Below are positions 1-14,190 of a stretch of DNA of 14,190 bases, piece by piece (positions within the stretch are counted from its first letter, which is position 1; every line of letters begins with the position of its first letter). Source of the DNA: a virus. Lineage: Duplodnaviria; Heunggongvirae; Uroviricota; Caudoviricetes. The notes under the pieces were generated by a model. That model had not been told where the DNA came from and did not search any database. It was given only the letters and a program-made list of their open reading frames with translations. A program made the position numbers and the translations under genes. The stretch lies in IMG/VR virus record IMGVR_UViG_2534681697_000026, one strand, 5' to 3'.

Positions 1-723
1 GCTGTCACGGAAACCGGAAGTGACTGGTACGGCTGGGACGGCGACCGCCTGACCACGATACAGAACGACAGAACCCGCATCCAGACGATTTATCAGCCGG
101 GGAGCTTCACGCCACTCATCAGAGTTGAAACCGCCACCGGTGAGCAGGCGAAAATGCAGCGCCGCAGCCTGGCGGATGCCCTTCAGCAGTCCGGCGGCGA
201 AGACGGTGGTGATGTGGTGTTCCCGCCGGTGCTGGTGCAGATGCTCGACCGGCTGGAAAGTGAAATCCTGGCTGACCGGGTGAGTGAGGAAAGCCGCCGC
301 TGGCTGGCATCGTGCGGCCTGACGGTGGAGCAGATGCAAAACCAGATGGACCCGGTGTACACGCCGGCGCGAAAAATCCACCTGTACCACTGCGACCATC
401 GCGGCCTGCCGCTGGTGCTTATCAGCACGGAAGGGGCAACAGAATGGTGCGCAGAATACGATGAGTGGGGCAACCTGCTGAATGAAGAGAACCCGCATCA
501 GCTGCAGCAGCTTATCCGCCTGCCGGGTCAGCAGTATGATGAGGAGTCCGGCCTGTATTACAACCGCCACCGCTATTATGACCCGCTGCAGGGGCGGTAT
601 ATCACTCAGGATCCGATTGGACTGAAGGGGGGATGGAATTTTTATCAGTATCCGTTGAATCCGGTTCAGTATATAGATTCAATGGGGCTGGCATCTAAAT
701 ATGGACACTTAAATAATGGCTAG
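1..723 (+). CDS. Rhs-family protein, C-terminal part of the core (5' partial at window edge; C-terminal toxin region truncated by IS2)
   Basis: Frame 1 is open from nt 1 ([17 protein letters not shown]...) and runs into the track ORF 154-723. Contains the Rhs core end signature [39 protein letters not shown]. Only 10 codons ([10 protein letters not shown]) follow before a TAG stop supplied by the first 3 nt of IS2. GC-rich compared with the rest of the window. Confidence 0.8.
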
Positions 724-811
724 ACTGGCCCCCTGAATCTCCAGACAACCAGTATCACTTAAATAAGTGATAGTCTTAATACTAGTTTTTAGACTAGTCA
801 TTGGAGTACAG

Positions 812-1177
812 ATGATTGATGTCTTAGGGCCGGAGAAACGCAGACGGCGTACCACACAGGAAAAGATCGCAATTGTTCAGCAGAGCTTTGAACCGGGGAT
901 GACGGTCTCCCTCGTTGCCCGGCAACATGGTGTAGCAGCCAGCCAGTTATTTCTCTGGCGTAAGCAATACCAGGAAGGAAGTCTTACTGCTGTGGCCGCC
1001 GGAGAACAGGTTGTTCCTGCCTCTGAACTTGCTGCCGCCATGAAGCAGATTAAAGAACTCCAGCGCCTGCTCGGCAAGAAAACGATGGAAAATGAACTCC
1101 TCAAAGAAGCCGTTGAATATGGACGGGCAAAAAAGTGGATAGCGCACGCGCCCTTATTGCCCGGGGATGGGGAGTAA
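812..1177 (+). CDS. insC: IS2 transposase OrfA (InsC), helix-turn-helix DNA-binding subunit
   Basis: Translation [41 protein letters not shown]... (121 aa); GGAG Shine-Dalgarno 7 nt upstream of ATG 812. The track ORF start at 767 is an upstream in-frame extension without an RBS. Confidence 0.85.
1129..1135 (+). other. A_AAA_AAG slippery heptamer for programmed -1 ribosomal frameshift (IS2 insC to insD)
   Basis: In the insC frame the codons read gcA AAA AAG tgg (GRAKKW); insD is in the -1 frame and begins at the same position. Classic IS3-family frameshift window. Confidence 0.6.
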
Positions 1178-2040
1178 GCTTAGTCAGCCGTTGTCTCCGG
1201 GTGTCGCGTGCGCAGTTGCACGTCATTCTCAGACGAACCGATGACTGGATGGATGGCCGCCGCAGTCGTCACACTGATGATACGGATGTGCTTCTCCGTA
1301 TACACCATGTTATCGGAGAGCTGCCCACGTATGGTTATCGTCGGGTATGGGCGCTGCTTCGCAGACAGGCAGAACTTGATGGTATGCCTGCGATCAATGC
1401 CAAACGTGTTTACCGGATCATGCGCCAGAATGCGCTGTTGCTTGAGCGAAAACCTGCTGTACCGCCATCGAAACGGGCACATACAGGCAGAGTGGCCGTG
1501 AAAGAAAGCAATCAGCGATGGTGCTCTGACGGGTTCGAGTTCTGCTGTGATAACGGAGAGAGACTGCGTGTCACGTTCGCGCTGGACTGCTGTGATCGTG
1601 AGGCACTGCACTGGGCGGTGACTACCGGCGGCTTCAACAGTGAAACAGTACAGGACGTCATGCTGGGAGCGGTGGAACGCCGCTTCGGCAACGATCTTCC
1701 GTCGTCTCCAGTGGAGTGGCTGACGGATAATGGTTCATGCTACCGGGCTAATGAAACACGCCAGTTCGCCCGGATGTTGGGACTTGAACCGAAGAACACG
1801 GCGGTGCGGAGTCCGGAGAGTAACGGAATAGCAGAGAGCTTCGTGAAAACGATAAAGCGTGACTACATCAGTATCATGCCCAAACCAGACGGGTTAACGG
1901 CAGCAAAGAACCTTGCAGAGGCGTTCGAGCATTATAACGAATGGCATCCGCATAGTGCGCTGGGTTATCGCTCGCCACGGGAATATCTGCGGCAGCGGGC
2001 TTGTAATGGGTTAAGTGATAACAGATGTCTGGAAATATAG
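1135..2040 (+). CDS. insD: IS2 transposase OrfB (InsD), DDE catalytic domain; normally made as an OrfAB fusion by -1 frameshifting
   Basis: 301-aa ORF in the -1 frame relative to insC, overlapping its 3' end; rve/DDE integrase-like sequence (…WCSDGFEF…DNGSCY…[11 protein letters not shown]…). Confidence 0.85.
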
Positions 2041-2127
2041 GGGCAAATCCACATACCGAAATGGTACTATTGAGTATTTATCCAGTAGGTTACGATGCCA
2101 TTCCACCCAACTGGTGAGGCATCAAGG

Positions 2128-2394
2128 ATGTACAGCAAATACGACGAGGCGCAGTTTCACTTGATACTTCCGCATGAACTCCACGCGAAAATTAAACAGC
2201 GTGCGAAGATGAATAACAGATCGCTGAACTCAGAGATAATTGCAGCGATTGAGGAATCATTGGATAAACAAAGCTCTGCATCAGTTTACATTGACGATGC
2301 AGAGCGTATGGCAGAACAACAATCTGATATGGTTAAGAAAATGGTTTTTGAAACGCTTAAGACCATGTATAGCAATAATAAAAAGGAAACATAG
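2128..2394 (+). CDS. mnt: Mnt-like ribbon-helix-helix (Arc/MetJ superfamily) repressor
   Basis: N-terminal RHH motif QFHLILPHELHAKIKQRAKMNNRSLNSEIIAAIEESL; C-terminal DDAERMAEQQSDMVKKMVFETLKTMY resembles the P22 Mnt tetramerisation region (…NDAERLADEQSELVKKMVFDTLKDLY…, from memory). Start chosen at ATG 2128 (GAGG 9 nt upstream) rather than the track start 2095, which has no RBS. Opposite strand to the late genes, as for P22 mnt. Confidence 0.65.
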   Translation: MYSKYDEAQFHLILPHELHAKIKQRAKMNNRSLNSEIIAAIEESLDKQSSASVYIDDAERMAEQQSDMVKKMVFETLKTMYSNNKKET

Positions 2395-2464
2395 AAATCT
2401 AGTTTCCGGCTAAAATGGCATTGCCTTCATGATATCCTGTGAAAAACTAAGGAGAGTTAACCAT

Positions 2465-2689
2465 ATGAAAAAATCACTGTTAATTATCCCGCTTCTGCTG
2501 GTTGGATGCGCAAAAGTAAGTGACTATCAAGCAAGTTGCGAACAACGCTATCAAAAGCTTAGCGATATGGCTAATTGCCTTGATGCCAGTGTGAAGAACG
2601 ACTCACGCATGGCATCAGCACCAACACCTAAGCTGTATGTCCTTGCTGCAAAGATGCTCGGGCAAGGTGTCGATGAAGGCAAGACTTGA
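2465..2689 (+). CDS. small secreted lipoprotein (74 aa precursor)
   Basis: AAGGAG Shine-Dalgarno 9 nt upstream of ATG 2465; signal peptide plus lipobox MKKSLLIIPLLLVG|C; mature part about 55 aa with two further Cys. Track ORF 2429-2689 starts 12 codons earlier without an RBS. Confidence 0.55.
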   Translation: MKKSLLIIPLLLVGCAKVSDYQASCEQRYQKLSDMANCLDASVKNDSRMASAPTPKLYVLAAKMLGQGVDEGKT

Positions 2690-2930
2690 GCTTCAGAATC
2701 TTTATGTTCAATTACAAAGCCAAGAACAAGCCCAACAAATAGCACAAAGCCAAGCATTCCAGCAGGCTTTATTGAATTACCAGGCTGTAAACACAATGCA
2801 AGCGATCGAGCAAAAAGCGCGCCAGCCTGTTATAACTCAACCTTACCCAACACGCGTTGACACATATACAAACTGCAATTCAGGATTTGGAAACACGGTA
2901 ACATGCAACAGTAGCAGTAATATCAGGTAG
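2673..2930 (+). CDS. Gln-rich hypothetical protein (85 aa) with predicted coiled-coil-like N-terminus and Cys/Asn/Thr-rich C-terminus
   Basis: ORF overlapping the lipoprotein 3' end in another frame; AAGG 5 nt upstream of ATG 2673; strongly biased composition (QLQSQEQAQQIAQSQAFQQALLNYQ). Could instead be the continuation of the lipoprotein gene after a frameshift. Confidence 0.4.
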   Translation: MKARLELQNLYVQLQSQEQAQQIAQSQAFQQALLNYQAVNTMQAIEQKARQPVITQPYPTRVDTYTNCNSGFGNTVTCNSSSNIR

Positions 2931-2944
2931 TTATATCTTATCTT

Positions 2945-4792
2945 TTATTGCTGTTCTGCTGTAATTTGGCTTGAAAGTATAGGGCGTATCGCATTTGCAG
3001 CATTATTTAGCGCTCTTTCATAAGCTGGCGTTCCAGTTTTAGTGTTTGCCAGACGTAAGAGAGCATTCCTTGCTGCTTTGGACTCATACAAGCGCATCAT
3101 TGCACCAAAACCAGCCTCAAGCCCCATTGATACGCCAAGGGTCGCAGTTGCGCCAATCGTCCTTATCCTGTTGGCTTGCGATTGCCCCGTCTGAGTTACT
3201 ACATTTGCGGTGTCTGACCTTGCTGTTTGCTGTAGAACTTCATGAAGAGCATCAAGCTCTTTCATGTGCTTTCCAGAAAAAATAGTGTTGTAAATTTCAC
3301 CGCCTGACTGAGATTTCAGCTTATTAACTTCAGTGATGAACTTGGCTGGAGAGTCCCCGGCCTTTTCCGCTATTTTGCTGACGTAAGCTGCACGCATAGC
3401 ATCTTTCCCCTTATCATCCAGTGCGCTCCAGATTCGTTTCACGTCAGATGGTTTTCTGCTTAATACAACGGTATTTATAAGTTCAGGACTGGCTTCACTG
3501 CTTGCCTTGTTGAGCTTGTTAGCAATGTTTTTATTAAGCACCTTATTATAAACGTTTGCATAATCGGAATTTGCTTTAAGGTATTTTGCTGCGTCTGATG
3601 CACCGAGGTTTTTAGCAACTGCGTTACGAAGGTCTTTTGACATTGCATTCTCTACCATATTGGTAGCTGCTTTTGCCTGGTTGGGGAAGACCATAGCATC
3701 TCCCTGAACATTAGATCTAAATGCTGTTCTGTGCTGACGCAAGAGATCAAACGTAACATCCAAATCAGTTGCAGGGTTTGCTAATTCTTCACGTAGGTTA
3801 CGCAAGGATGTAAGCAGGCTTTGATTGGCAGACGTCCCAAGCCGTTCCTGTCTTGCGATCGCTGTATTCAGAGCATTCATGGTATTTGTGGTATCAACTG
3901 CGGCATTACCCATTTTATTGGTGACGTCATTGATAACAGCGCCAGCGGCATCCTTCCGCCCCCTTAACGTGGTGGTCAGAGATTTCACCACATCATCAGG
4001 GTTGTACTCACCAAAACGGTCAAAATAATTACTTACCAGCTTACTACGCGTTGCATATTGCTCCGCTCGCTTTGAGCCTGTCCCGAGCAAAGCCCCCTCG
4101 GCATCCTGAGTAAGGCCGCGAGTGAAAGCATTTTTCGGCGGGATAACATCAGATGTCATTGGTGTCACGCCCATCGATTCTGATGTGGCAATTTTCTTCG
4201 CCACTTCTGGCGCAATATCACCTTTTATAGCCGTTATTCCACGCCCTATTCCCTTTGCTGCTGCGGAAAGAACACCCTGAGCGGCAAGGTTAACTCCGGC
4301 ATTTTTAGCTGCATTTTGTGCGAAATCGCCTTTCTGATTTGCGGCCTCTGCCAGTGATCCAATAGCCATGCTTCCTGCCGTTCCAACTCCTGGAACTAAA
4401 TACCCACCAATTGTTTCACCGGCTTGCGCGTAGGTGTCTGTCGGTCTGTCTACTGGACGATAAACATCATCCAAAACCTTGGGTCCACCAAGCCCCTGAC
4501 TGATTGCATTAATCAGACTTGCGCCGCCCTGCAATACGTCAAATGGTATGTTTACCAGACCACGACCAGCCTGCTCTGCAATTTGCCCTGCACTTTGCCC
4601 GCCTGTGAGCCAATCGCCAGCTTGTTGCATCAATGATGGTTCTTCACGTGCTGGTTCATTATTGGCCTGATTAACTGTTTGTTGCTGAACAGCCTGACCA
4701 GCAAAATACTCATCAATGGCGGTGCCAATATCTTCCATGCTCGTACCATCAGGGAAGGTAAATGTCTTACCGTTTGCAGTTACTTTCATCAT
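2945..4792 (-). CDS. P22 gp16-like ejection (E) protein, 615 aa
   Basis: Last gene of the virion operon, length close to P22 gp16 (609 aa), Ala/Gly/Asn-rich low-complexity composition typical of ejection proteins; start overlaps the stop of the upstream gene by 4 nt (ATGA coupling). Confidence 0.75.
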
Positions 4793-6255
4793 TCCACCGT
4801 AAATTGAATGCCTGATTTTGAGGTATATGATCCGGATTGACTCTGCTGCTGTTGGGTATTTGCCGGTTGTTGGCTATTGCTCTGTTGTTGACTATTTGCA
4901 GCACTTGAAACCACCAAAGCATCATAAACGCGACCAGACTGACCACGTAATGAGTTATATTGGCCCTGCATTTTTCGCATTTTTGTTTCAGTAGCAGCCT
5001 TGGAATCACCGGGCTGAGGCAGGTACATTTTGGAATACTCCTGCATCTCTGGCAGAGTAATTGCTGCACCTGTTTCTGGGCGCAAAATTGCATACAAGGC
5101 GTCTCTCGCATTTACCATATATTGCTGCTCCGCTGGTGATAGGCTTAAATTTGCAATAGTCCCATCACCAAGAGAGCGATTTATTAATGCAACTCGCTTA
5201 GGGTCAATGCTTTTACTAAGCTGATTCATTGAGTCCATTGAATCTTTTAATCGCAAAGCAAATCCTGCCGCCTTCTTGGAACCCTCATTAGCCTTATCTA
5301 TGATGCTTTGCGCTTGTGGCAAGCTAATTGGTTTAATGCCATCACCAGATATAGGTTGGTTTAGTTTTCCGGCTTCCTCGCTGCCATCGGTGTAATACTT
5401 AGTTACCGAGCCATCAGGATTGGTTTCAACCTTAAGTAATTTCTTAGCATTGGGATTAATTCCCGCCGCTGCCGCAAATGCCGCTGCACCATCTGGATCC
5501 GCCTTTAACATTTGCGCGTACTGATTGTAATTCTGCATTGCGGCTGTTGGTGCATATGCTGACGTTAACGCATTTGCTCGGCTAATATCCTGCCCTCTCG
5601 CCTGAAGTGCTTCTCCAGCCTGATTGCTGCGGATTGTCTCTGCCAGTCTGCCTCGGTCAATCTCACGACCAGCCATCTTGTCCTGAACATTGAAGTAATC
5701 AATCGGACCAAGAGCAGCCATTCCAAGGTGATCAACAAACTCACCAAATCCTGAAGGGTTCTGCTGATACATCTGAGCAACGCTGTTAGGGTCAACACCG
5801 ACGCGAGTCAGTTCCTTGGCGTTGTTTTGCAGCCATGATTGCATTGCTTCTGGAGACGATGACGCAAGGCGTGCGCCAGCCGCTAAGGTGCCGATAGAAT
5901 TACGCTGATCTTCATCAATGAATCCCATGCCTTTACGAACGGATTCAATCTGGTCTGGATATTGAGTAGCCAACTGACGCAAAGCACCGCGATCACCAGA
6001 CGCATAAGCATTAGCGTATGCCTGCTGAAATTCTTTCTGCCGCTGAGCCTGCTTTTCCTGCTGAAACCCCCCCGCAATACCTGAAAGGCCTTGCAAAGCA
6101 GTCAGCCCAACATTGTTAGCGCCTGAACGCTCAATATCATTGTTCTGCCTGATAAGCTGAAGCGTATTGCCGATGTCATTTACGCTCGGAGCGTTTGAGT
6201 TGACGCCGCCGATACCAGCCAACAATCCGCCATTTGATCCTTGCCAAGTAGCCAT
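4789..6255 (-). CDS. P22 gp20-like ejection (E) protein, 488 aa
   Basis: Position between gp7 and gp16 homologs, size close to P22 gp20 (471 aa); AAGGGG RBS 8 nt upstream; Gln/Ala-rich. Confidence 0.75.
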
Positions 6256-6264
6256 GATTACCCC

Positions 6265-6418
6265 TTAAAACAACGAACCAAGCAATCCGATACCAGCACC
6301 AATGCCAGCGCCCCAAGGTGTTGATGTTCCCAAAAGGCTGGCAAGACCTGCACCGGCAATCGCACCAGACGTTCCGCCACTAATTGCAGTCTGAAGACTT
6401 GATGGTTTATTGGCATTA
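6265..6418 (-). pseudogene. 3' fragment of P22 gp7-like ejection protein gene, separated from its 5' part by an IS insertion
   Basis: Reverse-strand frame reads (A)NANKPSSLQTAISGGTSGAIAGAGLASLLGTSTPWGAGIGAGIGLLGSLF-stop, in frame with the 5' fragment when the IS and one TA are removed; stop lies 9 nt upstream of the gp20 start. Confidence 0.7.
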
Positions 6419-6429
6419 GGCTGTGTCCC

Positions 6430-6945
6430 TTAATTACGTAAGCGTTGATAAAAGAGTCGGATGCAGCCCAGTTTCACCATCGCCAGGTAATTTCTCGCCG
6501 TTTTGTCGTAACGCGTGGCGATGCGGCGATATTCTTTCAGCCGCCCAAAGCACCGTTCAACGACATTACGATTGCAGTACGCATCACGATCAAGCTGTGC
6601 ACGTCCATCCGATGCCATTTTCTCATTTGACTTTCGGGGGATTACTGCCTTTATACCGTTATTTTTCAGCTCGTTGCGCAATGCGCACCCTGAATACGCT
6701 TTATCAGCCAGTACCGCATGTCCACGGCGTTTCATGCTGCCGTTCTGACGCTGAACGCCAATCCCGTCCAGAAGTCGTTGCGCGAACTGGCTTTCATGAG
6801 CTTGTCCGGGGCTTAGCACGATATTTAACGGGAGGCCACTTCCGTCTGTTGCCAGATGGATTTTGGTGCCAAAACCGCCGCGAGAGCGACCCAGCCCATT
6901 ATCTCCGTCGATATCGGGATGTTTTTTTGAGCACCGGCGGCACAT
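6430..6945 (-). CDS. IS5-family transposase OrfB (DDE catalytic part), accessed by -1 frameshift from OrfA
   Basis: Acidic/conserved motifs DIDGDNG, LADKAYSG and NVVERCFGRLKEYRRIATRYDK, consistent with a DDE transposase; overlaps orfA in the -1 frame across an A7C run (plus-strand gtttttttgag at about 6921-6931). Confidence 0.8.
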   Translation of the reverse strand: MCRRCSKKHPDIDGDNGLGRSRGGFGTKIHLATDGSGLPLNIVLSPGQAHESQFAQRLLDGIGVQRQNGSMKRRGHAVLADKAYSGCALRNELKNNGIKAVIPRKSNEKMASDGRAQLDRDAYCNRNVVERCFGRLKEYRRIATRYDKTARNYLAMVKLGCIRLFYQRLRN

Positions 6946-7274
6946 TTCAGCGCCCGGATATTACTGCCATCCAGCGCGGTGGCAGACCAGTCAATAAAGC
7001 CGTTTGCATCAAGTAGCGAAAGCAACCTGTTGAAAATAATATTAATCACGCCTGACTTTGACCATCGGTTAAAGCGGTTATAAACAGTTTTCCATGACCC
7101 ATATCGTTCGGGTAAATCGCGCCATGGTGCACCGGAACATAACACCCAGAACATGCCATTGATGATTTTACGGTGCTCAGCCCATGGGCGTCCGGCCCGT
7201 GGTGTGGCGGGTTCAGGAGGTAACAGGGGCTTGATGATGGTCCATGCCTCATCGGGAAGGTCGTAGCGAGCCAT
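6825..7274 (-). CDS. IS5-family transposase OrfA (N-terminal DNA-binding part)
   Basis: MARYDLPDEAWTIIKPLLPP… N-terminus typical of two-ORF IS5-family transposases; starts 60 nt inside the IS end. Confidence 0.8.
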   Translation of the reverse strand: MARYDLPDEAWTIIKPLLPPEPATPRAGRPWAEHRKIINGMFWVLCSGAPWRDLPERYGSWKTVYNRFNRWSKSGVINIIFNRLLSLLDANGFIDWSATALDGSNIRALKCAAGAQKNIPISTEIMGWVALAAVLAPKSIWQQTEVASR

Positions 7275-7334
7275 AGTTCAATATGTTGTGTAAACAGACA
7301 GTTACTATAGCTCAGATGATTAAGGGACACAGCC

Positions 7335-7872
7335 TAGCAGCGGCAAGAGCTGCGCTTTGCTGTGCAATGCTGCTCATGTTGTTGGCGTACGTCTGCCCGG
7401 CGTTTGCCTGACCTTGAAGTGCACCAAGCCCAACGTTTGCCAGATTGTTGTAATTGCTCATCTGGTTTGATAACCAAGACTGACCGAGAGTAGGCGCGAT
7501 CGTAGCCAGTTGATTGCTTGTGGCTGTCGAACCAAGTCCACCCGTCGCCTCCGCAGCAGCAAGACTCTGGTAACGAGCCTGACCTGCAAGGTCTTTATAC
7601 TGCTGAGAGTTGTAATACTGATTAAGTGCCTGCCCCTGACCTTCTAAACTGGAAAGGTTCTGAAGCTGGTTAACATACTGCTCCGCAAGAGGCGTGAACG
7701 GAGCAAGGTTTTTCATGATCGTCTGCCACTGCTGATTTTGCAGGTCTGCGGCATACTTCTGAGCTTCTGCTGCATACTTTGCGCTTTTATCGGAGCCACC
7801 TTTCCCGCCTTTTTCAGGGCAATAAGGTTCCTCGCCGCGCAGTTTTCTGCCCAGCTTAAATGCATATAACAT
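7335..7872 (-). pseudogene. 5' fragment of P22 gp7-like ejection protein gene, interrupted by IS copy A
   Basis: N-terminus MLYAFKLGRKLRGEEPYCPEKGGKGG… in the position expected for gp7, immediately downstream of gp14; the track ORF 7312-7872 reads through into the IS end and stops there. With the 3' fragment it reconstitutes 229 codons. Confidence 0.75.
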
Positions 7873-7874
7873 AG

Positions 7875-8333
7875 CTATCTCCCGTGATTCAGGAAGTCGA
7901 TTAGTTCTTCGCGTGTGGCGCTGTAAAACGTCACGTCATCCACGCCTTTAAAGTATTTCTTGATGGTTCCGACACGCTTAAGGCCAATCATTGCGCAGTA
8001 CATCTGCCCGTGGCGGAATTTGCGTGCAGCGAACGATGTGACACACTGAACGGTGGTGTTAGTCAGAATGTATCGCCAGAACGCCAGCCCGATTTCCTTG
8101 CTGAAGCCGCGAATCTCTGGCAGGTACATGGCGTGGCAATCGAATGTCAGCGGCTGAATCTCCTGATAGTAAACAATGCCGCCGAACTGCCCATGCACGT
8201 TAACCTCAAAGTAACGGCATTCAGGCTTGTAGTCGTATCCATCGCCGTTGTTGCTCCCGGCGATAATGTCAGGGTGATTTCCTACTGCTTCGATCAGGTC
8301 GATGTTTCGCGTTGGTTTGAACTGAATCATCAC
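7875..8333 (-). CDS. P22 gp14-like protein (assigned by position), 152 aa
   Basis: Sits between the tail needle and gp7 homologs with 4-nt ATGA overlaps on both sides, as in the P22 virion operon; I cannot confirm the sequence itself from memory. Confidence 0.55.
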
Positions 8334-9178
8334 TGCTCCGCGATTATCTTGATGGTTGTGGCAGTAAACGCCGCACCATTTGACTGAATGGTTAACGTGC
8401 TGCCATTTGTGACAAGAAAGCCGTCTTTATCCACGCTGAAGAACGTAGCTAACAAGATGTTATCGGTTGTTGTCGCCGCATTACGACTGCTGACCAACGT
8501 GTCAGGAACAGAGCCGGAAAAGGTTAGCTGCATTGACCTGTTTGCGGTTCCACTGGGCCACGTCCCGACAATCGACAACTTGAAGAACAAGGTTTTGTTC
8601 TCGTTGAACACAACCATCTTGTTGTTAACGGTGTCGAAGAATGGTGCCAACGAGCCGGATGACGGCGTGAGCGTTTTCAGCAGGCTAACAAGGTTAGTCG
8701 GCGCTGTCGGGATGGTTACAGATACGCCAGAGTAAACAACCTCTGACTTCTTGCGAGTAGTGGCATACTCCAGAGCATCGATGCGCGTTTCATGGTCTGA
8801 AAGCGTGTTTTGAATGGCGACAACTTCATCAGTCAGATAATCAATATCGTTTTCTGCTGTCGTTAATCGCGAATCAAGGCCGACTATCGCTGCTTCTGCG
8901 TTAGTGATCCTTGTTTCGTGGTCCTGTATCTTCGCTTCAGCTGATGCCAGTCGAATTTCGTGATCAACCAGAATCACATCCTGCTCATCGTTCCTTACCT
9001 GCGCGTCATAAGCGCCCTGTCCGGACTCGTTGGCCTTATTCACCACGTTACCAACATCAGTACCCTGTGCGATAACGTAAAGCAGATACGACTGCGAGAA
9101 GATATTGCGTGGAAGGATTGATGTATCGAGCCGCGTCGCCTGAACAATAACAGGTGTATTGAGATTCGAATCCGCCAT
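8330..9178 (-). CDS. tail needle protein (P22 gp26 family) with an extended C-terminal domain, 282 aa
   Basis: N-terminal [43 protein letters not shown]… matches the conserved gp26 N-terminal region followed by coiled-coil heptads; C-terminal about 130 aa is Thr/Ser/Asn-rich and unlike the short P22 tip. Confidence 0.8.
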
Positions 9179-10596
9179 TACTCAATCCTTATCTGAGTGC
9201 CAGACAGAGTGACAGGTGACTTCGTGATAATGCGCAATTTGAAGCCGACATTTTTCCTGATGCGCCCTACTCGCTTCCACAAAACGCGTTTGTCGTAAAC
9301 GAACGGTTCATTCTGCTCAATCATCTGCTCACGTCCGTAATTGATGCCGTCAGTGGTTGCAGAGAGGAACAGGCGGTCGGCGTACTGAGCTACGCCAGTG
9401 GATGATTCCACCTCCAGATCGAAGCATCTGGCGTTATCCGCTTTGAACAACGGAGTAAACAGCAGGTGTTCCTGCTGCTTGTCGTACTGGCTGCTGATAT
9501 CGAACTGCAGTTTCCCGGTCACGGATTCCAGCTTATCGCCGCACGTTATCTGATTGCCTTCGTAAATGAAGTCGATAGCGCGGTACACATCGTCATACAG
9601 GCCTGTTTTCAGCACACACCATTGCGGACCATTGGCGCTTGAAGATGCATCGTACACAAGGACGTGACGCGGAAGATGGATAATCAGCAACTCATGCGCA
9701 TCAAATCGCAGAGACTCCATCACACCATCAGCCAGTTCATCAGCAGTGTAGGAGCGAAGTATTTTCTCAATGCTCGCGCTGGCGATTGGTGATACCTGAC
9801 CGGAACCGATGATGTACACAGACGGCGCACCCGTTGCCGGGTTGCTGATGAAAGCATAGGAATCAGCAAACGGCGTTTTGCAGTAAGTCCCGGCGATGCC
9901 TTTTTGCACCATCAATGATGGCTGGGCGACATACAAAGCAGCACCAACGGTGGTTGCACCAGTCAGGGAGAAATATTCAATCGTCGATGAACCAAAGCAG
10001 ACGATGAAGTCTCGCCATGTCCCTATGCCGATGATGCCATCAGGCTGAGATTCTGCGCGATATTGTGCGCTGTATCGGTCAGGATGTGATTCGTCTTCAA
10101 GGTCAGTGATAAACCATGAATCAGTACCGTCTTTTGACCACGCATAACGCCCACGTAAGCGCGTAATGTCACGAACCGAACCTAGCTCATACTGAGTGAA
10201 TCCGCTATCTGTAGGCCAGTTTGAGACGGTTTTAATCGTGCCATCATAGCGATACTCGACCAGTTGACCATTAACACCTATCGCCTGAGATGTACGACCA
10301 TGCGCCATTGATACGCGACCACTTCCGGCGACGTCACCGACTTCACTTTCTCCTTTGTACAGCTTGCCACCACACACACGATAAACAGCATTCTGCGCCA
10401 TGTTGTACTCGACGCCGCGAGATACACCGTTCACATCAGAGCGTTTGGCAATGCCAGGGAATGAGCGAAGATATCCGCTGCTGTTCAGGATTTCTTTGGG
10501 TGTAGCCAGCATATTCACTGGCAGATAGTCGATATAGTCGGCGTTTCGAAAGTCTTTGCCGACACCTTTCATAAGCGGAAGTTGCTGAATAGGCAT
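9178..10596 (-). CDS. P22 gp10-like tail accessory (portal-closure/tail hub) protein, 472 aa
   Basis: Same length as P22 gp10 and correct position between gp4 and gp26; stop overlaps the tail needle start (ATGA). Confidence 0.85.
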
Positions 10597-10604
10597 TTAT
10601 TCAC

Positions 10605-11087
10605 CTATGAATTTGGGATATCGCCATCAATCAGAGGGAGATCGCCTGGATAATATCGGTCAGATGTGAACACGTCATATTTATTACCCTGTCCTACAGG
10701 AAAATCTCCACGTCGTCGCATTGAAGGAACAACCAGAGTGTCGGTCATCAAGGCATCATATGAGCGTTGGGCGTTACTGAGAACTTGCGGAGTTGGCTCA
10801 AGGCTGTAATCAGATAGCATTCTCAGCAATAACTGATAGCCTACTGCGTGTTTGTATTTTCTTGGAAGACCTGACTCATCATCTGGTAATGGCTGCTCAT
10901 CTCCAGTTGCGAAAGCGTAACCAATGTCGCCGGGGTTAATCATCCACTCGGACATCATATCTTCCAGATCATTTACACCATCTTCAATTGATTGCGGCTC
11001 AACATCAGTCAGCGATGCATTAGAAGCAATAGCAAACTTACGAAGCGCAAAAAGGACGATCTCACCCTTTGTCAGTACTGTTGCCAT
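10605..11087 (-). CDS. P22 gp4-like head-to-tail adaptor / tail accessory protein, 160 aa
   Basis: N-terminal [42 protein letters not shown] resembles P22 gp4 (…[34 protein letters not shown]…, from memory); first gene after the coat-like gene. Confidence 0.85.
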   Translation of the reverse strand: [160 protein letters not shown]

Positions 11088-11247
11088 TGTCTGCCGCCTT
11101 ACGACCTCGCTTACTGGTCGGTTTCAATTCATCAACTGAGGCAACAAAGCCCAACTTTTCGAAAAACTGGAAGTCTTTTTCTGCGATAACGGCCTGTACA
11201 TGCCCGGATTCGTTATCTGCGGCAAGGAATACACTCATGCGATCCAT
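11062..11247 (-). CDS. hypothetical small protein (61 aa) between coat-like gene and gp4
   Basis: Good RBS (TAAGGAAACAAT-ATG) directly after the coat-gene terminator; overlaps the gp4 start by 26 nt in another frame. No recognisable motif. Confidence 0.3.
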   Translation of the reverse strand: MDRMSVFLAADNESGHVQAVIAEKDFQFFEKLGFVASVDELKPTSKRGRKAADNGNSTDKG

Positions 11248-11257
11248 ATTGTTTCCT

Positions 11258-11284
11258 TAAAACATAAAAGGGGCGTAAGCCCCT
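11258..11284 (-). terminator. rho-independent terminator/attenuator hairpin after the coat-like gene
   Basis: Minus-strand sense: GGGGC-ttac-GCCCC followed by TTTTATGTTTT, starting 6 nt after the coat-like gene stop. Confidence 0.55.
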
Positions 11285-11289
11285 TGTTA

Positions 11290-12306
11290 TTACGGATTAC
11301 CGAAGAACTGACCGCCCATGTGAGGGTTAAAGCACACATATGCAGGCAGTAAGTCAAAGCGCATTTTTTGCACGTTGGCATCGCCATCTGCGTATTTATG
11401 TACGCGGATGGAGAAACCTTCATATGTTGCAACAGCAGAATCAATACTGTGCAGTTTCGGCAGTGGGATAGAGCCAAGTCCACAGAAGAACTTGTTATAG
11501 AACAGGTTTGGCTTCATTGTCTGGCTAGCAGTGCCTACTACAGATACGGCATCGTTTGCCGCTACCTGACGACTTACAGAGTTGTACTGCGGGTTTGTAG
11601 TGTCATAAATCGGAACACCAGAAAGCGTAACCGTCACATTGCCACTGCTGTCTGAATTAGCATCAGCAGTAACCGTTGCAGTGAAGCTAATTGGTGTGGC
11701 TCCGTTATACAACGCCTGTTTGGTCTGCTGTTGCAGCCAGTAGGTATTGGTGAATTTAACCTGATCACCAGCTTTCAGAAAACCTGTAACGCTGGCTGTC
11801 GCTCCGGTCAATGTTACAGTGAACTGGTATGAGTCTTTAACTGCGTTATAGGTAACAGTTGGCTGTGTTTTGACTGTCAGTGTTCCGCCAAATGCCCCCT
11901 GCGTACGAGAGGCAAGCCCATTAGACATCAGTGCGCGAATGCCGCCAAAATTGGTTGGGATCTGTGCATTCTCCCATGCAGTACGAACCAATTGATCTGA
12001 AGCGTGCAAACCAGTCTGCGCATCAGCAAGTCGCTGTGCAGACCATGGATCCATTACAGCATAGTTTTCACCTTCATTAACGCCGAGGTCTTTCAGGAAA
12101 GATGCCGTCTGCGCAACATCAGACCATTTGGTGATTGGAGTATTGGGGCTACCAAGTGACAACGCACCGTTATTCATCATGAAGTGAGCAAGCTCTGTTT
12201 CAAGGTCGGTAACGATTCGCTGGCGAACCGGCGCGAGAATTTCTTCCAGTTGGTTAAGCTTGATCGCTTCCTCCAGTTGCTGATATTCAACAACAACAGT
12301 GATGTA
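11290..12306 (-). pseudogene. major capsid (coat) protein-like gene with Ig/telokin-like insertion, 5' end disrupted by IS copy B
   Basis: Track ORF 11290-12180 (296 aa) has no RBS at its Met, and the frame stays open for 42 more codons upstream, right up to the IS boundary. Position immediately upstream of gp4; C-terminal part has beta-rich Thr/Val repeats and a layout reminiscent of the P22 coat C-terminal half. Confidence 0.5.
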
Positions 12307-12366
12307 GGCTGTGTCCCTTAATCATCTGAGCTATAGTAACTGTCTGTTTACACAACATATTGAACT

Positions 12367-12816
12367 ATGGCTCGCTACGACCTTCCCGATGAGGCATGGA
12401 CCATCATCAAGCCCCTGTTACCTCCTGAACCCGCCACACCACGGGCCGGACGCCCATGGGCTGAGCACCGTAAAATCATAAATGGCATGTTCTGGGTGTT
12501 ATGTTCCGGTGCACCATGGCGCGATTTACCCGAACGATATGGGTCATGGAAAACTGTTTATAACCGCTTTAACCGATGGTCAAAGTCAGGCGTGATTAAT
12601 ATTATTTTCAACAGGTTGCTTTCGCTACTTGATGCAAACGGCTTTATTGACTGGTCTGCCACCGCGCTGGATGGCAGTAATATCCGGGCGCTGAAATGTG
12701 CCGCCGGTGCTCAAAAAAACATCCCGATATCGACGGAGATAATGGGCTGGGTCGCTCTCGCGGCGGTTTTGGCACCAAAATCCATCTGGCAACAGACGGA
12801 AGTGGCCTCCCGTTAA
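12367..12816 (+). CDS. IS5-family transposase OrfA
   Basis: Identical 149-aa product to copy A orfA. Confidence 0.8.
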   Translation: MARYDLPDEAWTIIKPLLPPEPATPRAGRPWAEHRKIINGMFWVLCSGAPWRDLPERYGSWKTVYNRFNRWSKSGVINIIFNRLLSLLDANGFIDWSATALDGSNIRALKCAAGAQKNIPISTEIMGWVALAAVLAPKSIWQQTEVASR

Positions 12817-13211
12817 ATATCGTGCTAAGCCCCGGACAAGCTCATGAAAGCCAGTTCGCGCAACGACTTCTGGACGGGATTGGCGTTCAGCGTCAGAACG
12901 GCAGCATGAAACGCCGTGGACATGCGGTACTGGCTGATAAAGCGTATTCAGGGCGCGCATTGCGCAACGAGCTGAAAAATAACGGTATAAAGGCAGTAAT
13001 CCCCCGAAAGTCAAATGAGAAAATGGCATCGGATGGACGTGCACAGCTTGATCGTGATGCGTACCGCAATCGTAATGTCGTTGAACGGTGCTTTGGGCGG
13101 CTGAAAGAATATCGCCGCATCGCCACGCGTTACGACAAAACGGCGAGAAATTACCTGGCGATGGTGAAACTGGGCTGCATCCGACTCTTTTATCAACGCT
13201 TACGTAATTAA
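12696..13211 (+). CDS. IS5-family transposase OrfB (DDE domain)
   Basis: 171-aa product, 2 aa different from copy A orfB; -1 frame relative to orfA. Confidence 0.8.
   Translation: MCRRCSKKHPDIDGDNGLGRSRGGFGTKIHLATDGSGLPLNIVLSPGQAHESQFAQRLLDGIGVQRQNGSMKRRGHAVLADKAYSGRALRNELKNNGIKAVIPRKSNEKMASDGRAQLDRDAYRNRNVVERCFGRLKEYRRIATRYDKTARNYLAMVKLGCIRLFYQRLRN
12714..12720 (+). other. A_AAA_AAC slippery heptamer, predicted programmed -1 frameshift site joining OrfA and OrfB
   Basis: orfA frame reads gcT CAA AAA AAC atc; shifting -1 at the A7 run gives …AQKK-HPDIDGDNG… and a fusion transposase of about 280 aa. Confidence 0.55.
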
Positions 13212-13348
13212 GGGACACAGCCTAGATGCCGCTATCAGATCCTCCACTTTGAAAGCGAAGCTTATACATATCTTTTACATCAGCAATCTATTGTTAATCT
13301 CCAATCAATGTTACGTTGTCATCTCACTCATGCTTTGGAGGTAGTGAT

Positions 13349-13528
13349 ATGTCTTGTCCAAAATGCGGTTCTGGAAATATTGCAAAAGAAAAAACAATGC
13401 GTGAATGGTCTGGTGATTATGTGTGCTGCGATTGCGGATACAACGACTCTAAAGACGCATTTGGAGAGCTTGGTAAAAACGAGTTTGTCAAAATTAATAA
13501 AGAACGCGAAGGCAACGAAAAAAGCTAA
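13349..13528 (+). CDS. small zinc-ribbon protein (59 aa), CxxC…CxxC
   Basis: GGAGG Shine-Dalgarno 7 nt upstream of ATG 13349; MSCPKCGSGNIAKEKTMREWSGDYVCCDCGY has two Cys pairs; Lys/Glu-rich tail. The track start at 13316 lacks an RBS. Confidence 0.5.
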   Translation: MSCPKCGSGNIAKEKTMREWSGDYVCCDCGYNDSKDAFGELGKNEFVKINKEREGNEKS

Positions 13529-13593
13529 TTTATTTATTCATATATGAAAACAATGTAACCAATATTCGAATTGAAGAACTGAAAGAACACCAA

Positions 13594-13616
13594 GCCGCCT
13601 GATGGCGGTTTTTTTA
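13594..13616 (+). terminator. rho-independent terminator
   Basis: CCGCC-tgat-GGCGG stem-loop followed by TTTTTTTT. Confidence 0.5.
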
Positions 13617-13629
13617 TTTGGGGTAGTAG

Positions 13630-13845
13630 ATGGCTGCAATTCACATTGTATCAATAACATGCAATGCAATTCAGATAGTTGCTTGCATTATCTTTGTTTT
13701 CTCAATCCTTCGCTCCCGACGATATTCTCCAGCAATTAACCGACATCCTGCACAGGTTGAAGCCGTCAGGATGGCTATAGAGTTACGAAATGAGATGAGT
13801 AAGGCATTACTGGAGATGGGGAAACCATTCACTGACAAACATTAA
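13630..13845 (+). CDS. hypothetical small protein (71 aa) with hydrophobic N-terminal segment
   Basis: ORF begins just after the upstream terminator with GGGG 6 nt before the ATG; N-terminal IVSITCNAIQIVACIIFVFSIL could be a transmembrane helix. No recognisable family. Confidence 0.3.
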   Translation: MAAIHIVSITCNAIQIVACIIFVFSILRSRRYSPAINRHPAQVEAVRMAIELRNEMSKALLEMGKPFTDKH

Positions 13846-13922
13846 GAGTGTAAATAAAGAAATCACACCGCCTCACACTCGATGAGGTATTTTCATTTAT
13901 CAAGATATCCAGACCTACCATC

Positions 13923-13945
13923 GCCGCATCAATGCGGTTTTTTTA
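13923..13945 (+). terminator. rho-independent terminator
   Basis: CCGCA-tcaa-TGCGG stem-loop followed by TTTTTTT, about 75 nt after the stop of the 71-aa ORF. Confidence 0.5.
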
Positions 13946-13989
13946 TTACCTGATTTGCAGGTTCGATTCCATATTCGGAGATAGCACTC

Positions 13990-14190
13990 ATGCAACACGA
14001 ACTACAACCTGATTCACTGGTTGATTTGAAATTCATCATGGCTGATACTGGCTTTGGTAAAACCTTCATCTATGACCGGATTAAGTCCGGCGACCTGCCA
14101 AAAGCCAAAGTTATCCACGGGCGAGCAAGATGGTTATATCGTGACCATTGTGAATTCAAAAATAAGCTCTTAAGCCGCGCCAATGGGTAA
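13990..14190 (+). CDS. AlpA/Vis-type prophage regulatory protein (small HTH regulator/excisionase-like), 66 aa
   Basis: LKFIMADTGFGKTFIYDRIKSGDLPKAKVIHGRARWLYRDHCEF fits the AlpA family pattern (L..TG.s.sTIYr.i..G.FPkp.k.G.r..W); GGAGA RBS; complete ORF ending at the window edge. Confidence 0.65.
   Translation: MQHELQPDSLVDLKFIMADTGFGKTFIYDRIKSGDLPKAKVIHGRARWLYRDHCEFKNKLLSRANG

What the first reader, a model, noticed from the sequence alone, without database searches (positions are those of the whole stretch)
2052..2930. Orphaned immI-like cassette: Mnt-type repressor, small lipoprotein and Gln-rich protein in the sieA/immI moron position
In P22-like phages the interval between gene 16 and the tailspike holds the immI region (mnt, arc, ant) and superinfection-exclusion morons, transcribed against the late operon. 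Here that interval has an Mnt-like repressor followed on the same strand by a lipoprotein (lipobox LLVGC, mature about 55 aa with 2 extra Cys) and an overlapping Gln-rich ORF, while arc, ant and the tailspike are absent (IS2 lies 76 bp upstream of the mnt ATG). The region is markedly more AT-rich than the flanking structural genes. Small prophage lipoproteins such as Cor and T5 Llp block phage receptors, so the lipoprotein is a candidate exclusion or lysogenic-conversion factor, and the three-gene unit is the best candidate here for an uncharacterised system. Function is speculative.
Basis: partly seen in the sequence, partly recalled or inferred. Interest (0 to 1): 0.7.

Follow-up and report, generated by a model that had tools for sequence, protein, structure and literature searches.

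The report
Broken prophage lipoprotein gene beside Mnt
The supposed three-gene cassette is an intact Mnt repressor gene plus one conserved prophage lipoprotein gene of unknown function, which a recent 20-base deletion has split into two reading frames in a decayed P22-like prophage of Shigella boydii.

Summary
The ORFs are real, but the cassette is two genes, not three. ORF 2128-2394 is a genuine Mnt repressor with both the Arc domain and the Mnt tetramerisation domain. The "small lipoprotein" (2465-2689) and the "Gln-rich protein" (2637-2930) are the two halves of one 161-aa lipoprotein gene (PHROG 6067, unknown function). That gene is intact in phages Gally, VSe13 and vB_EcoP-720R6, in E. 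coli O26 prophages and in 80 of 80 IMG/VR loci. Here, 20 bp were lost between two copies of the 8-bp repeat AGGCAAGA, which shifts the frame at codon 73. The same allele is in five assemblies, two of them NCBI genomes, one being S. boydii ATCC 9905.

The prophage is defective. IS2 separates mnt from the tailspike gene, and two IS5-family copies interrupt gene 7 and the coat gene. Most intact relatives also lack arc and ant, so mnt is not "orphaned". Mnt and the lipoprotein are independent mosaic modules.

The lipoprotein always lies convergent to gene 16, in the slot that sieA occupies in P22, and never together with sieA. Its Gally ortholog is transcribed in lysogens and induced in macrophages. 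It matches no curated family and no specific fold. An exclusion or conversion role remains a plausible but untested idea for the intact family. The copy in this window is almost certainly dead.

The parts
721..2051 (+). IS2 (1331 bp; orfA 767-1177, orfB 1135-2040), inserted in the tailspike-mnt intergenic region
   Evidence: It is 100% identical over 1331 bp to features annotated 'IS3-like element IS2 family transposase'. In sibling genome CP026875.1 the same insertion carries a 5-bp target duplication, CATAC. In the window the left flank (…AATAATGGC) lacks CATAC and belongs to an RHS fragment. The left junction therefore arose by IS2-mediated rearrangement.
2052..2056 (.). CATAC, the right-hand copy of the IS2 target-site duplication
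   Evidence: against the uninterrupted O26 sequence.
2054..2066 (.). TACCGAAATGGTA, a short palindrome (TACC-N5-GGTA) at the position homologous to the P22 mnt operator; a candidate Mnt operator by inference only
   Evidence: Alignment by eye of the P22 mnt upstream region (…GGTCCACCGTGGACCTATTGAG…) with the window (…TACCGAAATGGTACTATTGAG…). In mosaic relatives L023 and L030, homology to this mnt module begins at the same point. Binding was not tested.
2128..2394 (+). mnt, an intact 88-aa Mnt-type ribbon-helix-helix repressor
   Evidence: Pfam Arc 1.1e-12 and Repressor_Mnt 4e-12. PDB 1mnt 1.1e-17 and 1qey 1.1e-6. The exact protein is EFW55275.1 of Shigella boydii.
2465..2689 (+). 5' fragment of the lipoprotein pseudogene: signal peptide, lipobox LLVGC (Cys15) and residues 1-72 of the 161-aa protein, then 2 out-of-frame codons and TGA
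   Evidence: phrog_6067 positions 1-73, E = 2.4e-48. Alignment to the intact genes. The exact 74-aa product is EFW55276.1 / WP_000749293.1, 'putative lipoprotein [Shigella boydii ATCC 9905]'.
2677..2684 (+). Deletion junction: the single remaining copy of the 8-bp direct repeat AGGCAAGA. Intact alleles read AGGCAAGA-TAAGTGACGCAC-AGGCAAGA.
   Evidence: Pairwise alignment to the O26 allele shows 20 bp missing and only 2 substitutions elsewhere in 466 bp. The four-way DNA alignment agrees.
2679..2930 (+). 3' fragment of the lipoprotein pseudogene (residues 79-161: end of the N-domain, Gln-rich segment, C-terminal Cys hairpin), read in the frame of ORF 2637-2930
   Evidence: phrog_6067 positions 72-161, E = 1.6e-52.
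2945..4792 (-). P22 gene 16 homolog (ejection protein), convergent with the lipoprotein gene
   Evidence: Precomputed Pfam PF26808 Phage_P22_gp16 on the identical gene in L012 and L014. Synteny with Gally, VSe13 and O26.

Best explanation
The interval 2052-2930 is the accessory slot, between gene 16 and the tailspike, of a defective P22-like (Lederbergvirus) prophage of Shigella boydii. It holds two genes.

(1) mnt is intact and encodes a ribbon-helix-helix repressor with the Mnt tetramerisation domain. About 76 bp of its native upstream region survive next to IS2.

(2) The second gene encodes a 161-aa lipoprotein of PHROG 6067. It was inactivated by a 20-bp deletion between two 8-bp direct repeats, the signature of replication slippage.

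Shown:
- one gene split by the deletion;
- the deletion is recent (2 other substitutions);
- the same allele is present in several independent assemblies;
- decay elsewhere in the prophage.

Inferred for the intact family: Cys15 is lipidated and residue +2 is Ala, so the protein should be sorted to the outer membrane and face the periplasm. It would consist of a disulfide-bonded helical N-domain, a Gln-rich spacer and a C-terminal Cys hairpin. It is expressed from the prophage, and its most likely role is an envelope-level lysogenic-conversion or superinfection-exclusion function. It occupies the slot that sieA holds in P22.

In this window the truncation removes the most conserved motif (G-x-I-S-D-x-Q-A-R-x-E-L-Q-x-x-Y) and the Cys hairpin. 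The gene is most likely non-functional.
For: - One gene, not two.
- Slippage repeat and only 2 other differences from the O26 allele.
- Not an assembly error: region 2052-2944 is identical in five assemblies (two NCBI genomes and three SRA-run assemblies).
- The intact gene is real and constrained: dN/dS is 0.035-0.052 among E. coli and Salmonella alleles. The lipobox Cys, C25, C38 and the C-terminal Cys are invariant in 35 homologs across Enterobacterales.
- 80 of 80 IMG/VR loci are full length.
- Position is conserved. The gene is always convergent to gene 16 where the flank is available, in E. coli, Salmonella, Providencia, Proteus and Yersinia.
- It never occurs with SieA: 0 of 80 loci, and 0 of the 5 lipoprotein-carrying phages among the 41 SieA-carrying records.
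- Lysogen expression of the 97%-identical ortholog GALLYPH_13 in E. coli LF82: 70 normalised counts against a prophage median of 15.6 in LB. Log2 fpkm is 6-10 against 3.6-4.1 for the adjacent gene 16 homolog, and log2FC is 2.55 (q = 4.7e-27) in macrophages (PMC9928086, Tables S1 and S4).
- Prophage decay: IS2; two IS5-family copies in gene 7 and the coat gene.
- Mnt identity.
Against: - The function of the lipoprotein family is entirely untested. There is no hit in Pfam, NCBIfam, PADLOC or PDB.
- The authors of PMC9928086 did not count GALLYPH_13 as a moron, because it fell just under their 5-fold cut-off.
- The 74-aa fragment keeps the signal peptide, the lipobox and about three quarters of the N-domain. 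Residual or altered activity cannot be excluded by sequence alone.
- Outer-membrane sorting rests on the +2 rule only.
Confidence: 0.9

Rival explanations
1. One reading: a functional three-gene cassette of Mnt, a small ~55-aa lipoprotein and a separate Gln-rich protein, acting together as an uncharacterised exclusion system.
For: Three ORFs exist on one strand with short spacing or overlap. The 74-aa ORF is annotated as a 'putative lipoprotein' in GenBank.
Against: - The two downstream ORFs are collinear with one 161-aa gene in every relative.
- The Gln-rich ORF as such (97 aa from ATG 2637) is absent from a 15-billion-protein collection.
- Without the N-terminal half it has no signal peptide.
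- Mnt and the lipoprotein occur independently of each other.
Confidence: 0.03
2. The truncated 74-aa lipoprotein is still made and keeps, or has gained, a function. The deletion would then be an adaptive change in Shigella boydii rather than decay.
For: - The signal peptide, lipobox, ribosome-binding site (AAGGAG) and the C25/C38 pair are intact.
- The allele is shared by at least five assemblies, so it is fixed in a lineage.
- mnt upstream is intact, and no terminator-like site lies between mnt and the lipoprotein ORF.
Against: - The truncation removes invariant columns D76, A79, R80, L83, Q84 and Y87, the last predicted helix of the N-domain, and the conserved Cys hairpin.
- Even the most distant homologs keep profile positions 1-100.
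- The surrounding prophage is riddled with IS insertions, as expected for neutral decay.
- Sharing within one clonal lineage does not require selection.
Confidence: 0.07
3. The intact lipoprotein family is not a phage-exclusion factor. It would instead be a host-interaction or envelope-stress factor (a Bor-like lysogenic-conversion function), or a general bacterial envelope lipoprotein that P22-like phages happened to capture.
For: - The Gally ortholog is most highly expressed inside macrophages (log2 fpkm 10.3 at 1 h).
- The wider family has 242 representatives at E <= 1e-3. It includes short forms in non-phage genomic islands of environmental bacteria. None of these short forms was found in IMG/VR.
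- The gene is linked to at least three different gene 16 types, so it is not tuned to one ejection protein.
Against: - Strict conservation of the slot next to the ejection-protein genes, and mutual exclusivity with sieA, fit an exclusion role.
- Nothing tested here discriminates between the two roles.
Confidence: 0.3
4. The 20-bp gap is a sequencing or assembly artefact, and the gene is intact in the organism.
For: None beyond the general possibility. The source contig is from a draft assembly.
Against: The junction is identical in a complete chromosome (CP026875.1), in the ATCC 9905 draft and in three independent SRA-run assemblies.
Confidence: 0.01

Closest known systems
P22 Mnt repressor (immI region; Arc/MetJ ribbon-helix-helix superfamily)
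   Same: Both domains are present: the Arc-type RHH and the Mnt C-terminal coiled coil. The protein aligns with 1mnt over residues 6-78 at E = 1.1e-17. The gene is transcribed away from the tailspike side, and its upstream region is partly homologous to that of P22.
   Different: The N-terminal beta-strand residues differ (QFHLIL against HFNFRM), so operator specificity should differ. No arc or ant lies next to it, here or in most intact relatives, so its regulatory target is unknown. IS2 now abuts the presumed operator.
P22 SieA (superinfection exclusion, inner-membrane protein blocking the gp7/gp20/gp16 ejection conduit; PMC10883804)
   Same: Same genomic slot, immediately downstream of and convergent to gene 16, on the strand opposite the late operon. 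Similar size (161 against 163-164 aa). Expressed from the prophage. The two never co-occur in the loci examined.
   Different: There is no sequence similarity (BLASTP finds nothing at E <= 100). SieA is a multi-pass inner-membrane protein (PMC10883804). This protein has a lipoprotein signal peptide and a soluble helical body. No exclusion phenotype is known.
Cor (phi80/N15/HK022) and T5 Llp, phage lipoproteins that block the FhuA receptor
   Same: They are small phage-encoded lipoproteins with a lipobox, expressed to protect the infected or lysogenic cell. The outer-membrane location is predicted.
   Different: The only similarity to the Cor PHROG is E = 0.005-0.03 over residues 1-30, which is the signal peptide. 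The carrier phages are O-antigen-specific podoviruses, not FhuA-dependent siphoviruses. No receptor is known.
Lambda Bor / Iss-type prophage lipoproteins (lysogenic conversion, serum resistance)
   Same: A prophage-borne lipoprotein gene transcribed in the lysogen independently of the late genes. In LF82 both Bor (Perceval prophage) and the Gally ortholog respond to host-like conditions (PMC9928086).
   Different: No family match of any kind. The protein is larger and has a different domain layout.

Membership tests
Mnt repressor (P22 immI) | N-terminal Arc-type ribbon-helix-helix DNA-binding domain | tested here: met
   Pfam PF03869 Arc, E = 1.1e-12, 48 bits against a cut-off of 20.4, residues 7-49.
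Mnt repressor (P22 immI) | C-terminal Mnt tetramerisation coiled coil | tested here: met
   Pfam PF11423 Repressor_Mnt, E = 4e-12, 46.1 bits against a cut-off of 20.9, residues 57-81. PDB 1qey at 1.1e-6.
Mnt repressor (P22 immI) | Divergent arrangement with arc-ant, and an operator overlapping the ant promoter | tested here: not met
   There is no arc or ant in the window. 47 of 80 intact relatives place mnt directly next to the tailspike gene. A weak palindrome sits at the position homologous to the P22 operator, but it is unverified.
Mnt repressor (P22 immI) | Represses antirepressor synthesis in the lysogen | not testable with these tools
   This needs genetics or EMSA. No ant target is present here.
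PHROG 6067 lipoprotein (unknown function) | Full-length match to the 161-position profile in one reading frame | tested here: not met
   The window gives two fragments in different frames, covering profile positions 1-73 and 72-161. Relatives match positions 1-161 in one frame. It is therefore filed as a pseudogene of this family.
PHROG 6067 lipoprotein (unknown function) | Lipoprotein signal peptide with a lipobox Cys | tested here: met
   MKKSLLIIPLLLVG-C. Cys15 is invariant in 35 homologs. Lipidation itself was not tested.
PHROG 6067 lipoprotein (unknown function) | Position convergent to the gene 16 homolog of a P22-like (pro)phage | tested here: met
   Window 2930/2945. All related loci with an available flank show the same arrangement.
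SieA superinfection-exclusion proteins | Sequence similarity to SieA types A-C, including the FxRYPxEAxxFNK motif | tested here: not met
   BLASTP of the intact lipoprotein against P22 SieA gives no alignment at E <= 100. The motif is absent from the sequence. Types B and C were not compared directly.
SieA superinfection-exclusion proteins | Multi-pass inner-membrane topology | tested here: not met
   The only hydrophobic segment is the cleavable signal peptide. The remainder is predicted to be soluble helices. SieA topology is taken from PMC10883804.
SieA superinfection-exclusion proteins | Blocks DNA injection by P22-like phages | not testable with these tools
   This needs plating and injection assays.
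Cor/Llp receptor-blocking lipoproteins | Sequence or profile similarity beyond the signal peptide | tested here: not met
   phrog_1119 (Cor) gives E = 0.027 for the full protein and 0.0048 for the fragment, over residues 1-30 only.
IS2 (IS3 family) | 1331-bp element with orfA/orfB and a 5-bp target duplication | tested here: met
   100% identity to annotated IS2 over 1331 bp. HTH_Tnp_1 plus rve ORFs. CATAC duplication in sibling genome CP026875.1. In the window itself only the right-hand copy is present.

The most novel reading that the evidence does not exclude
The intact PHROG 6067 proteins would be a previously unrecognised class of prophage-expressed outer-membrane lipoprotein. They would substitute for SieA in P22-like prophages of E. 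coli, Shigella, Salmonella, Serratia, Yersinia, Proteus and Providencia. They would block superinfection from the periplasmic side of the outer membrane, for example by interfering with assembly of the gp7/gp20/gp16 ejection conduit or with a secondary receptor, and they would be up-regulated inside macrophages. The S. boydii copy would be a natural loss-of-function allele of such a system.
Probability: 0.25. Interest if true: 0.55.

Novelty: new member of a known kind. Interest (0 to 1): 0.25.

Why it matters
For this window it matters little. It is one more decayed, IS-ridden prophage of Shigella, and the cassette is an artefact of reading a frameshifted gene as two ORFs.

The useful by-product concerns the intact gene:
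- It defines a conserved family that no curated library covers.
- It is under purifying selection and is transcribed in lysogens.
- It fills the sieA slot in many P22-like prophages that lack sieA.
- It has distant relatives in genomic islands of unrelated bacteria.

This makes a concrete and cheap experiment possible: compare the intact and Δ20 alleles in phage plating and injection assays. That could reveal a second exclusion mechanism for short-tailed phages, or a macrophage-responsive conversion factor.

Tried and rejected
- Family assignment of the lipoprotein gave nothing above threshold: Pfam, NCBIfam, PADLOC and PDB sequence search. The T2SS GspK hit (E about 1e-3, 18.8 bits against a cut-off of 130) is low-complexity noise.
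- Promoter and terminator scans around the lipoprotein gene in the window, Gally and Y. ruckeri were no better than shuffled sequence. Whether the gene is co-transcribed with mnt or has its own promoter is unresolved.
- Rfam found no RNA family anywhere in the window, so no sar-like antisense RNA.
- A scan of one genome per species found only 5 loci.
- The broad-family alignment was too diverse to scan with. The short-form subfamily has no relatives in IMG/VR.
- A literature search by accession numbers and locus tags found no paper on this protein.
- Programmed frameshifting was considered as a way to rejoin the two ORFs. It was rejected because the split is a lineage-specific deletion and is absent from all 80+ relatives.
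- A dedicated pairing with one gene 16 type was considered. It was rejected because at least three gene 16 types flank the same lipoprotein.
Full report
**1. What is in the sequence**

The window is identical over positions 101-12000 to contig AERN01000049.1 of Shigella boydii ATCC 9905. It carries, on the minus strand, the late genes of a P22-like prophage. These are the coat gene (truncated), tail genes 4 and 10, the needle gene, gene 14, and ejection-protein genes 7, 20 and 16.

On the plus strand, left of the gene 16 homolog (2945-4792), lie the three ORFs of the finding. Left of them is IS2. IS2 occupies 721-2051, is exactly 1331 bp long, and is 100% identical to features annotated as IS2 in E. 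coli. The interval is moderately AT-rich, with GC of 0.37-0.46 against about 0.5 in most structural genes.

**2. The Mnt call is right**

ORF 2128-2394 (88 aa) matches Pfam Arc (E = 1.1e-12) and Repressor_Mnt (E = 4e-12), both above their curated cut-offs. It aligns with the P22 Mnt structure 1mnt over residues 6-78 at E = 1.1e-17. The exact protein is deposited as 'Arc family DNA-binding protein' of S. boydii.

**3. The 'lipoprotein' and the 'Gln-rich protein' are one gene**

- A megablast of the interval against phage genomes hit single genes in Escherichia phages Gally and vB_EcoP-720R6 and Salmonella phage VSe13. The subject span was 17-20 bp longer than the query span.
- These genes encode 161-aa proteins. 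Their N-terminal half is the window's lipoprotein ORF and their C-terminal half is the Gln-rich ORF.
- The DNA alignment shows one 20-bp gap in the window and nothing else that disturbs the frame.
- Against the allele of E. coli O26:H11 11368, the window differs by 2 substitutions in 466 bp plus loss of AGGCAAGATAAGTGACGCAC. This is one copy of the 8-bp direct repeat AGGCAAGA plus the 12 bp between the copies, the signature of replication slippage.
- The two window ORFs match PHROG 6067 ('unknown function') at profile positions 1-73 (E = 2.4e-48) and 72-161 (E = 1.6e-52). The intact VSe13 protein matches positions 1-161 (E = 1.4e-108).
- The frameshift puts a TGA two codons after residue 72.
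- The junction is identical in a complete chromosome (CP026875.1), in the ATCC 9905 draft and in three assemblies of independent sequencing runs. It is therefore a real lineage-specific allele.
- None of the top-listed E. coli complete genomes carries the deletion: all 40 listed matches span 929 bp against 909 bp of query. None of the 80 IMG/VR loci carries it either.

**4. The prophage is decayed, and the 'orphaning' is only partly due to IS2**

- In CP026875.1 the same IS2 is a simple insertion with a 5-bp target duplication (CATAC). It sits in the 121-bp intergenic region between a truncated tailspike gene and mnt. The prophage lies next to intS and yfdC, as it does in O26.
- In the window the left flank of IS2 is an RHS fragment without CATAC. 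An IS2-mediated rearrangement has therefore replaced the tailspike side.
- Two 100%-identical 920-bp IS5-family elements in inverted orientation (6417-7336 and 12305-13224) interrupt gene 7 and truncate the coat gene.
- The lack of arc and ant is normal for this phage group. Among 80 closely related IMG/VR loci, the commonest order is tailspike(-)/mnt(+)/lipoprotein(+)/gene 16(-), in 47 loci. Only 17 loci have an ant homolog.

**5. There is no obligate cassette**

- The lipoprotein gene occurs without mnt in 14 of the 80 loci and in a Yersinia ruckeri prophage.
- It occurs with another, opposite-strand gene between it and mnt in Gally, 720R6 and VSe13.
- The same mnt occurs without the lipoprotein in Sf101 and IME10.
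- The lipoprotein is flanked by at least three different gene 16 types.
- Mnt and the lipoprotein are therefore separate mosaic modules that often happen to be neighbours.

**6. What the intact lipoprotein looks like**

- 94 homologs were found across Enterobacterales: Escherichia, Salmonella, Citrobacter, Serratia, Klebsiella aerogenes, Cronobacter, Yersinia, Pectobacterium, Morganella, Providencia and Tatumella.
- In 35 full-length sequences the lipobox Cys15, C25, C38, the motif around D76-Y87 and a C-terminal Cys pair are invariant.
- dN/dS among E. coli and Salmonella alleles is 0.035-0.052, so the gene is a real, constrained coding sequence.
- Residue +2 after the lipid-modified Cys is Ala. 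By the established +2 sorting rule this predicts outer-membrane targeting. This is an inference.
- The AlphaFold2 model is confident only for residues 18-96, a helical bundle with pLDDT of about 80-86. The Gln-rich segment and the C-terminal hairpin are poorly predicted.
- There is no match in Pfam, NCBIfam, PADLOC or the PDB.
- A profile search of 1.84 billion representatives found 242 relatives at E <= 1e-3. Many are 125-135 aa proteins with the same N-domain and Cys hairpin but without the Gln-rich spacer. No curated family covers these either.
- Three such relatives lie in variable chromosomal regions beside integrase or toxin-antitoxin genes. That subfamily has no relatives in IMG/VR.

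**7. Evidence bearing on function**

- Position: the gene always sits convergent to gene 16. This is the place of sieA in P22, where the order is 16/sieA/orf59a/mnt/arc/ant/9.
- SieA is found in 41 phage records, none of which is one of the five phages carrying the lipoprotein. No SieA homolog is present in any of the 80 loci.
- SieA is a multi-pass inner-membrane protein that blocks the ejection-protein conduit, and only about a third of P22-like phages have it (PMC10883804). It shares no sequence similarity with the lipoprotein.
- Expression: in E. coli LF82 the 97%-identical Gally ortholog GALLYPH_13 gives 70 normalised counts in overnight LB, against a prophage median of 15.6. That is 4.5-fold, just under the authors' 5-fold moron threshold.
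- Its log2 fpkm is 6.1, 8.0, 8.1, 10.3 and 8.6 in the five conditions, against 3.6-4.1 for the adjacent gene 16 homolog. It is called up-regulated in macrophages (log2FC 2.55, q = 4.7e-27) (PMC9928086, Tables S1 and S4).
- The gene is therefore transcribed from the prophage independently of the late operon.
- Together these observations fit a lysogen-expressed envelope function such as superinfection exclusion or lysogenic conversion. They prove neither.

**8. Consequence for this window**

The truncation at residue 72 removes six invariant positions of the N-domain, its last predicted helix, the spacer and the Cys hairpin. Even the most remote homologs retain profile positions 1-100. The 3' ORF lacks an export signal. 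The simplest reading is a recent loss-of-function mutation in a prophage that is decaying as a whole, which is typical of Shigella. A residual role for the 74-aa lipoprotein cannot be excluded from sequence. I rate it at about 7%.

**9. The mnt upstream region**

The 76 bp kept between IS2 and mnt are conserved in relatives. In two mosaic relatives (L023, L030), homology to this mnt module begins at the very point where IS2 is inserted. The stretch aligns in part with the P22 mnt promoter/operator region. At the position of the P22 operator it has TACCGAAATGGTA (2054-2066). A second, better palindrome (ATGCAACCA-N5-TGATTGCAT) lies on the tailspike side in intact relatives, and here IS2 has cut it off. 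Which of the two Mnt binds, and what it regulates in phages without ant, is unknown. Promoter scans were uninformative.

**10. Verdict**

The Mnt assignment, the IS2 call, the lipobox and the slot are all correct. The three-gene system is not real, because two of its members are halves of a frameshifted gene. The window copy is a pseudogene in a defective prophage.

The intact family is an uncharacterised prophage lipoprotein, expressed in lysogens and sitting in the sieA position, that deserves a plating test. The finding as given is ordinary. The family behind it is of moderate interest.

Noticed in passing
window 6417-7336 and 12305-13224: Two 100%-identical 920-bp IS5-family elements (DUF4096 plus DDE_Tnp_1 ORFs, terminal inverted repeats TAGGCTGTGTCCCTTAAT…) lie in inverted orientation. 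The first interrupts the gene 7 homolog and the second truncates the coat gene. The 4968 bp between them could invert by homologous recombination.
   Followed up: partly
window 154-723 and the IS2 left junction at 720/721: An RHS-family fragment (PF03527, E = 7.7e-15) abuts the left end of IS2 without the CATAC target duplication seen in sibling genome CP026875.1, where a truncated tailspike gene lies there instead. This implies an IS2-mediated rearrangement, or a contig joined across IS2 copies, in ATCC 9905.
   Followed up: partly
L001 3464-3883 (Gally GALLYPH_14), between the lipoprotein gene and mnt: This is a second, unrelated small lipoprotein gene (MKRIIGVVAGAILLSGC…, weak PEGA-domain hit) on the opposite strand. 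In LF82 it is even more strongly expressed than GALLYPH_13 (log2 fpkm 9.4-11 outside stationary LB). It is present in 9 of the 80 IMG/VR loci.
   Followed up: partly
P0127-P0268 (profile search); loci L100-L103: The lipoprotein belongs to a much wider family that no curated library covers, with 242 representatives at 50% clustering. Members share the pattern GC-x-x-V-G-x-Y-Q-x-x-C-E … C-L … K-L-Y-x-L … D-A-R-x-x-L-Q-x-L-Y, followed by a terminal T-N-C-x3-G-N-x-x-x-C hairpin. Short forms sit beside integrase and toxin-antitoxin genes in non-enterobacterial genomes.
   Followed up: partly
L017 3520-3771 (P22 mnt in NC_002371.2), L019 4044-4337 (Sf101), phrog_795: Mnt-type repressors are annotated 'partition protein ATPase' in the P22 RefSeq record, in Sf101 and in PHROG 795/2685. 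This looks like a propagated misannotation for an 83-97 aa ribbon-helix-helix repressor.
   Followed up: no
window 13225-14190: To the right of the second IS copy lies an AT-rich stretch (GC 0.37-0.42). It has two similar terminator-like hairpins (13594-13618 and 13923-13947, GCCGC…GCGGTTTTTTTATT) and small ORFs (13308-13547, 13630-13845) with no Pfam match. Its identity was not established.
   Followed up: no
L023 and L030, upstream of mnt: In two mosaic relatives with a different tailspike-side sequence, homology to the window-type mnt module starts at …ACATACC. This is the same position as the IS2 insertion, so a recombination boundary of the mnt module coincides with the IS2 target.
   Followed up: no
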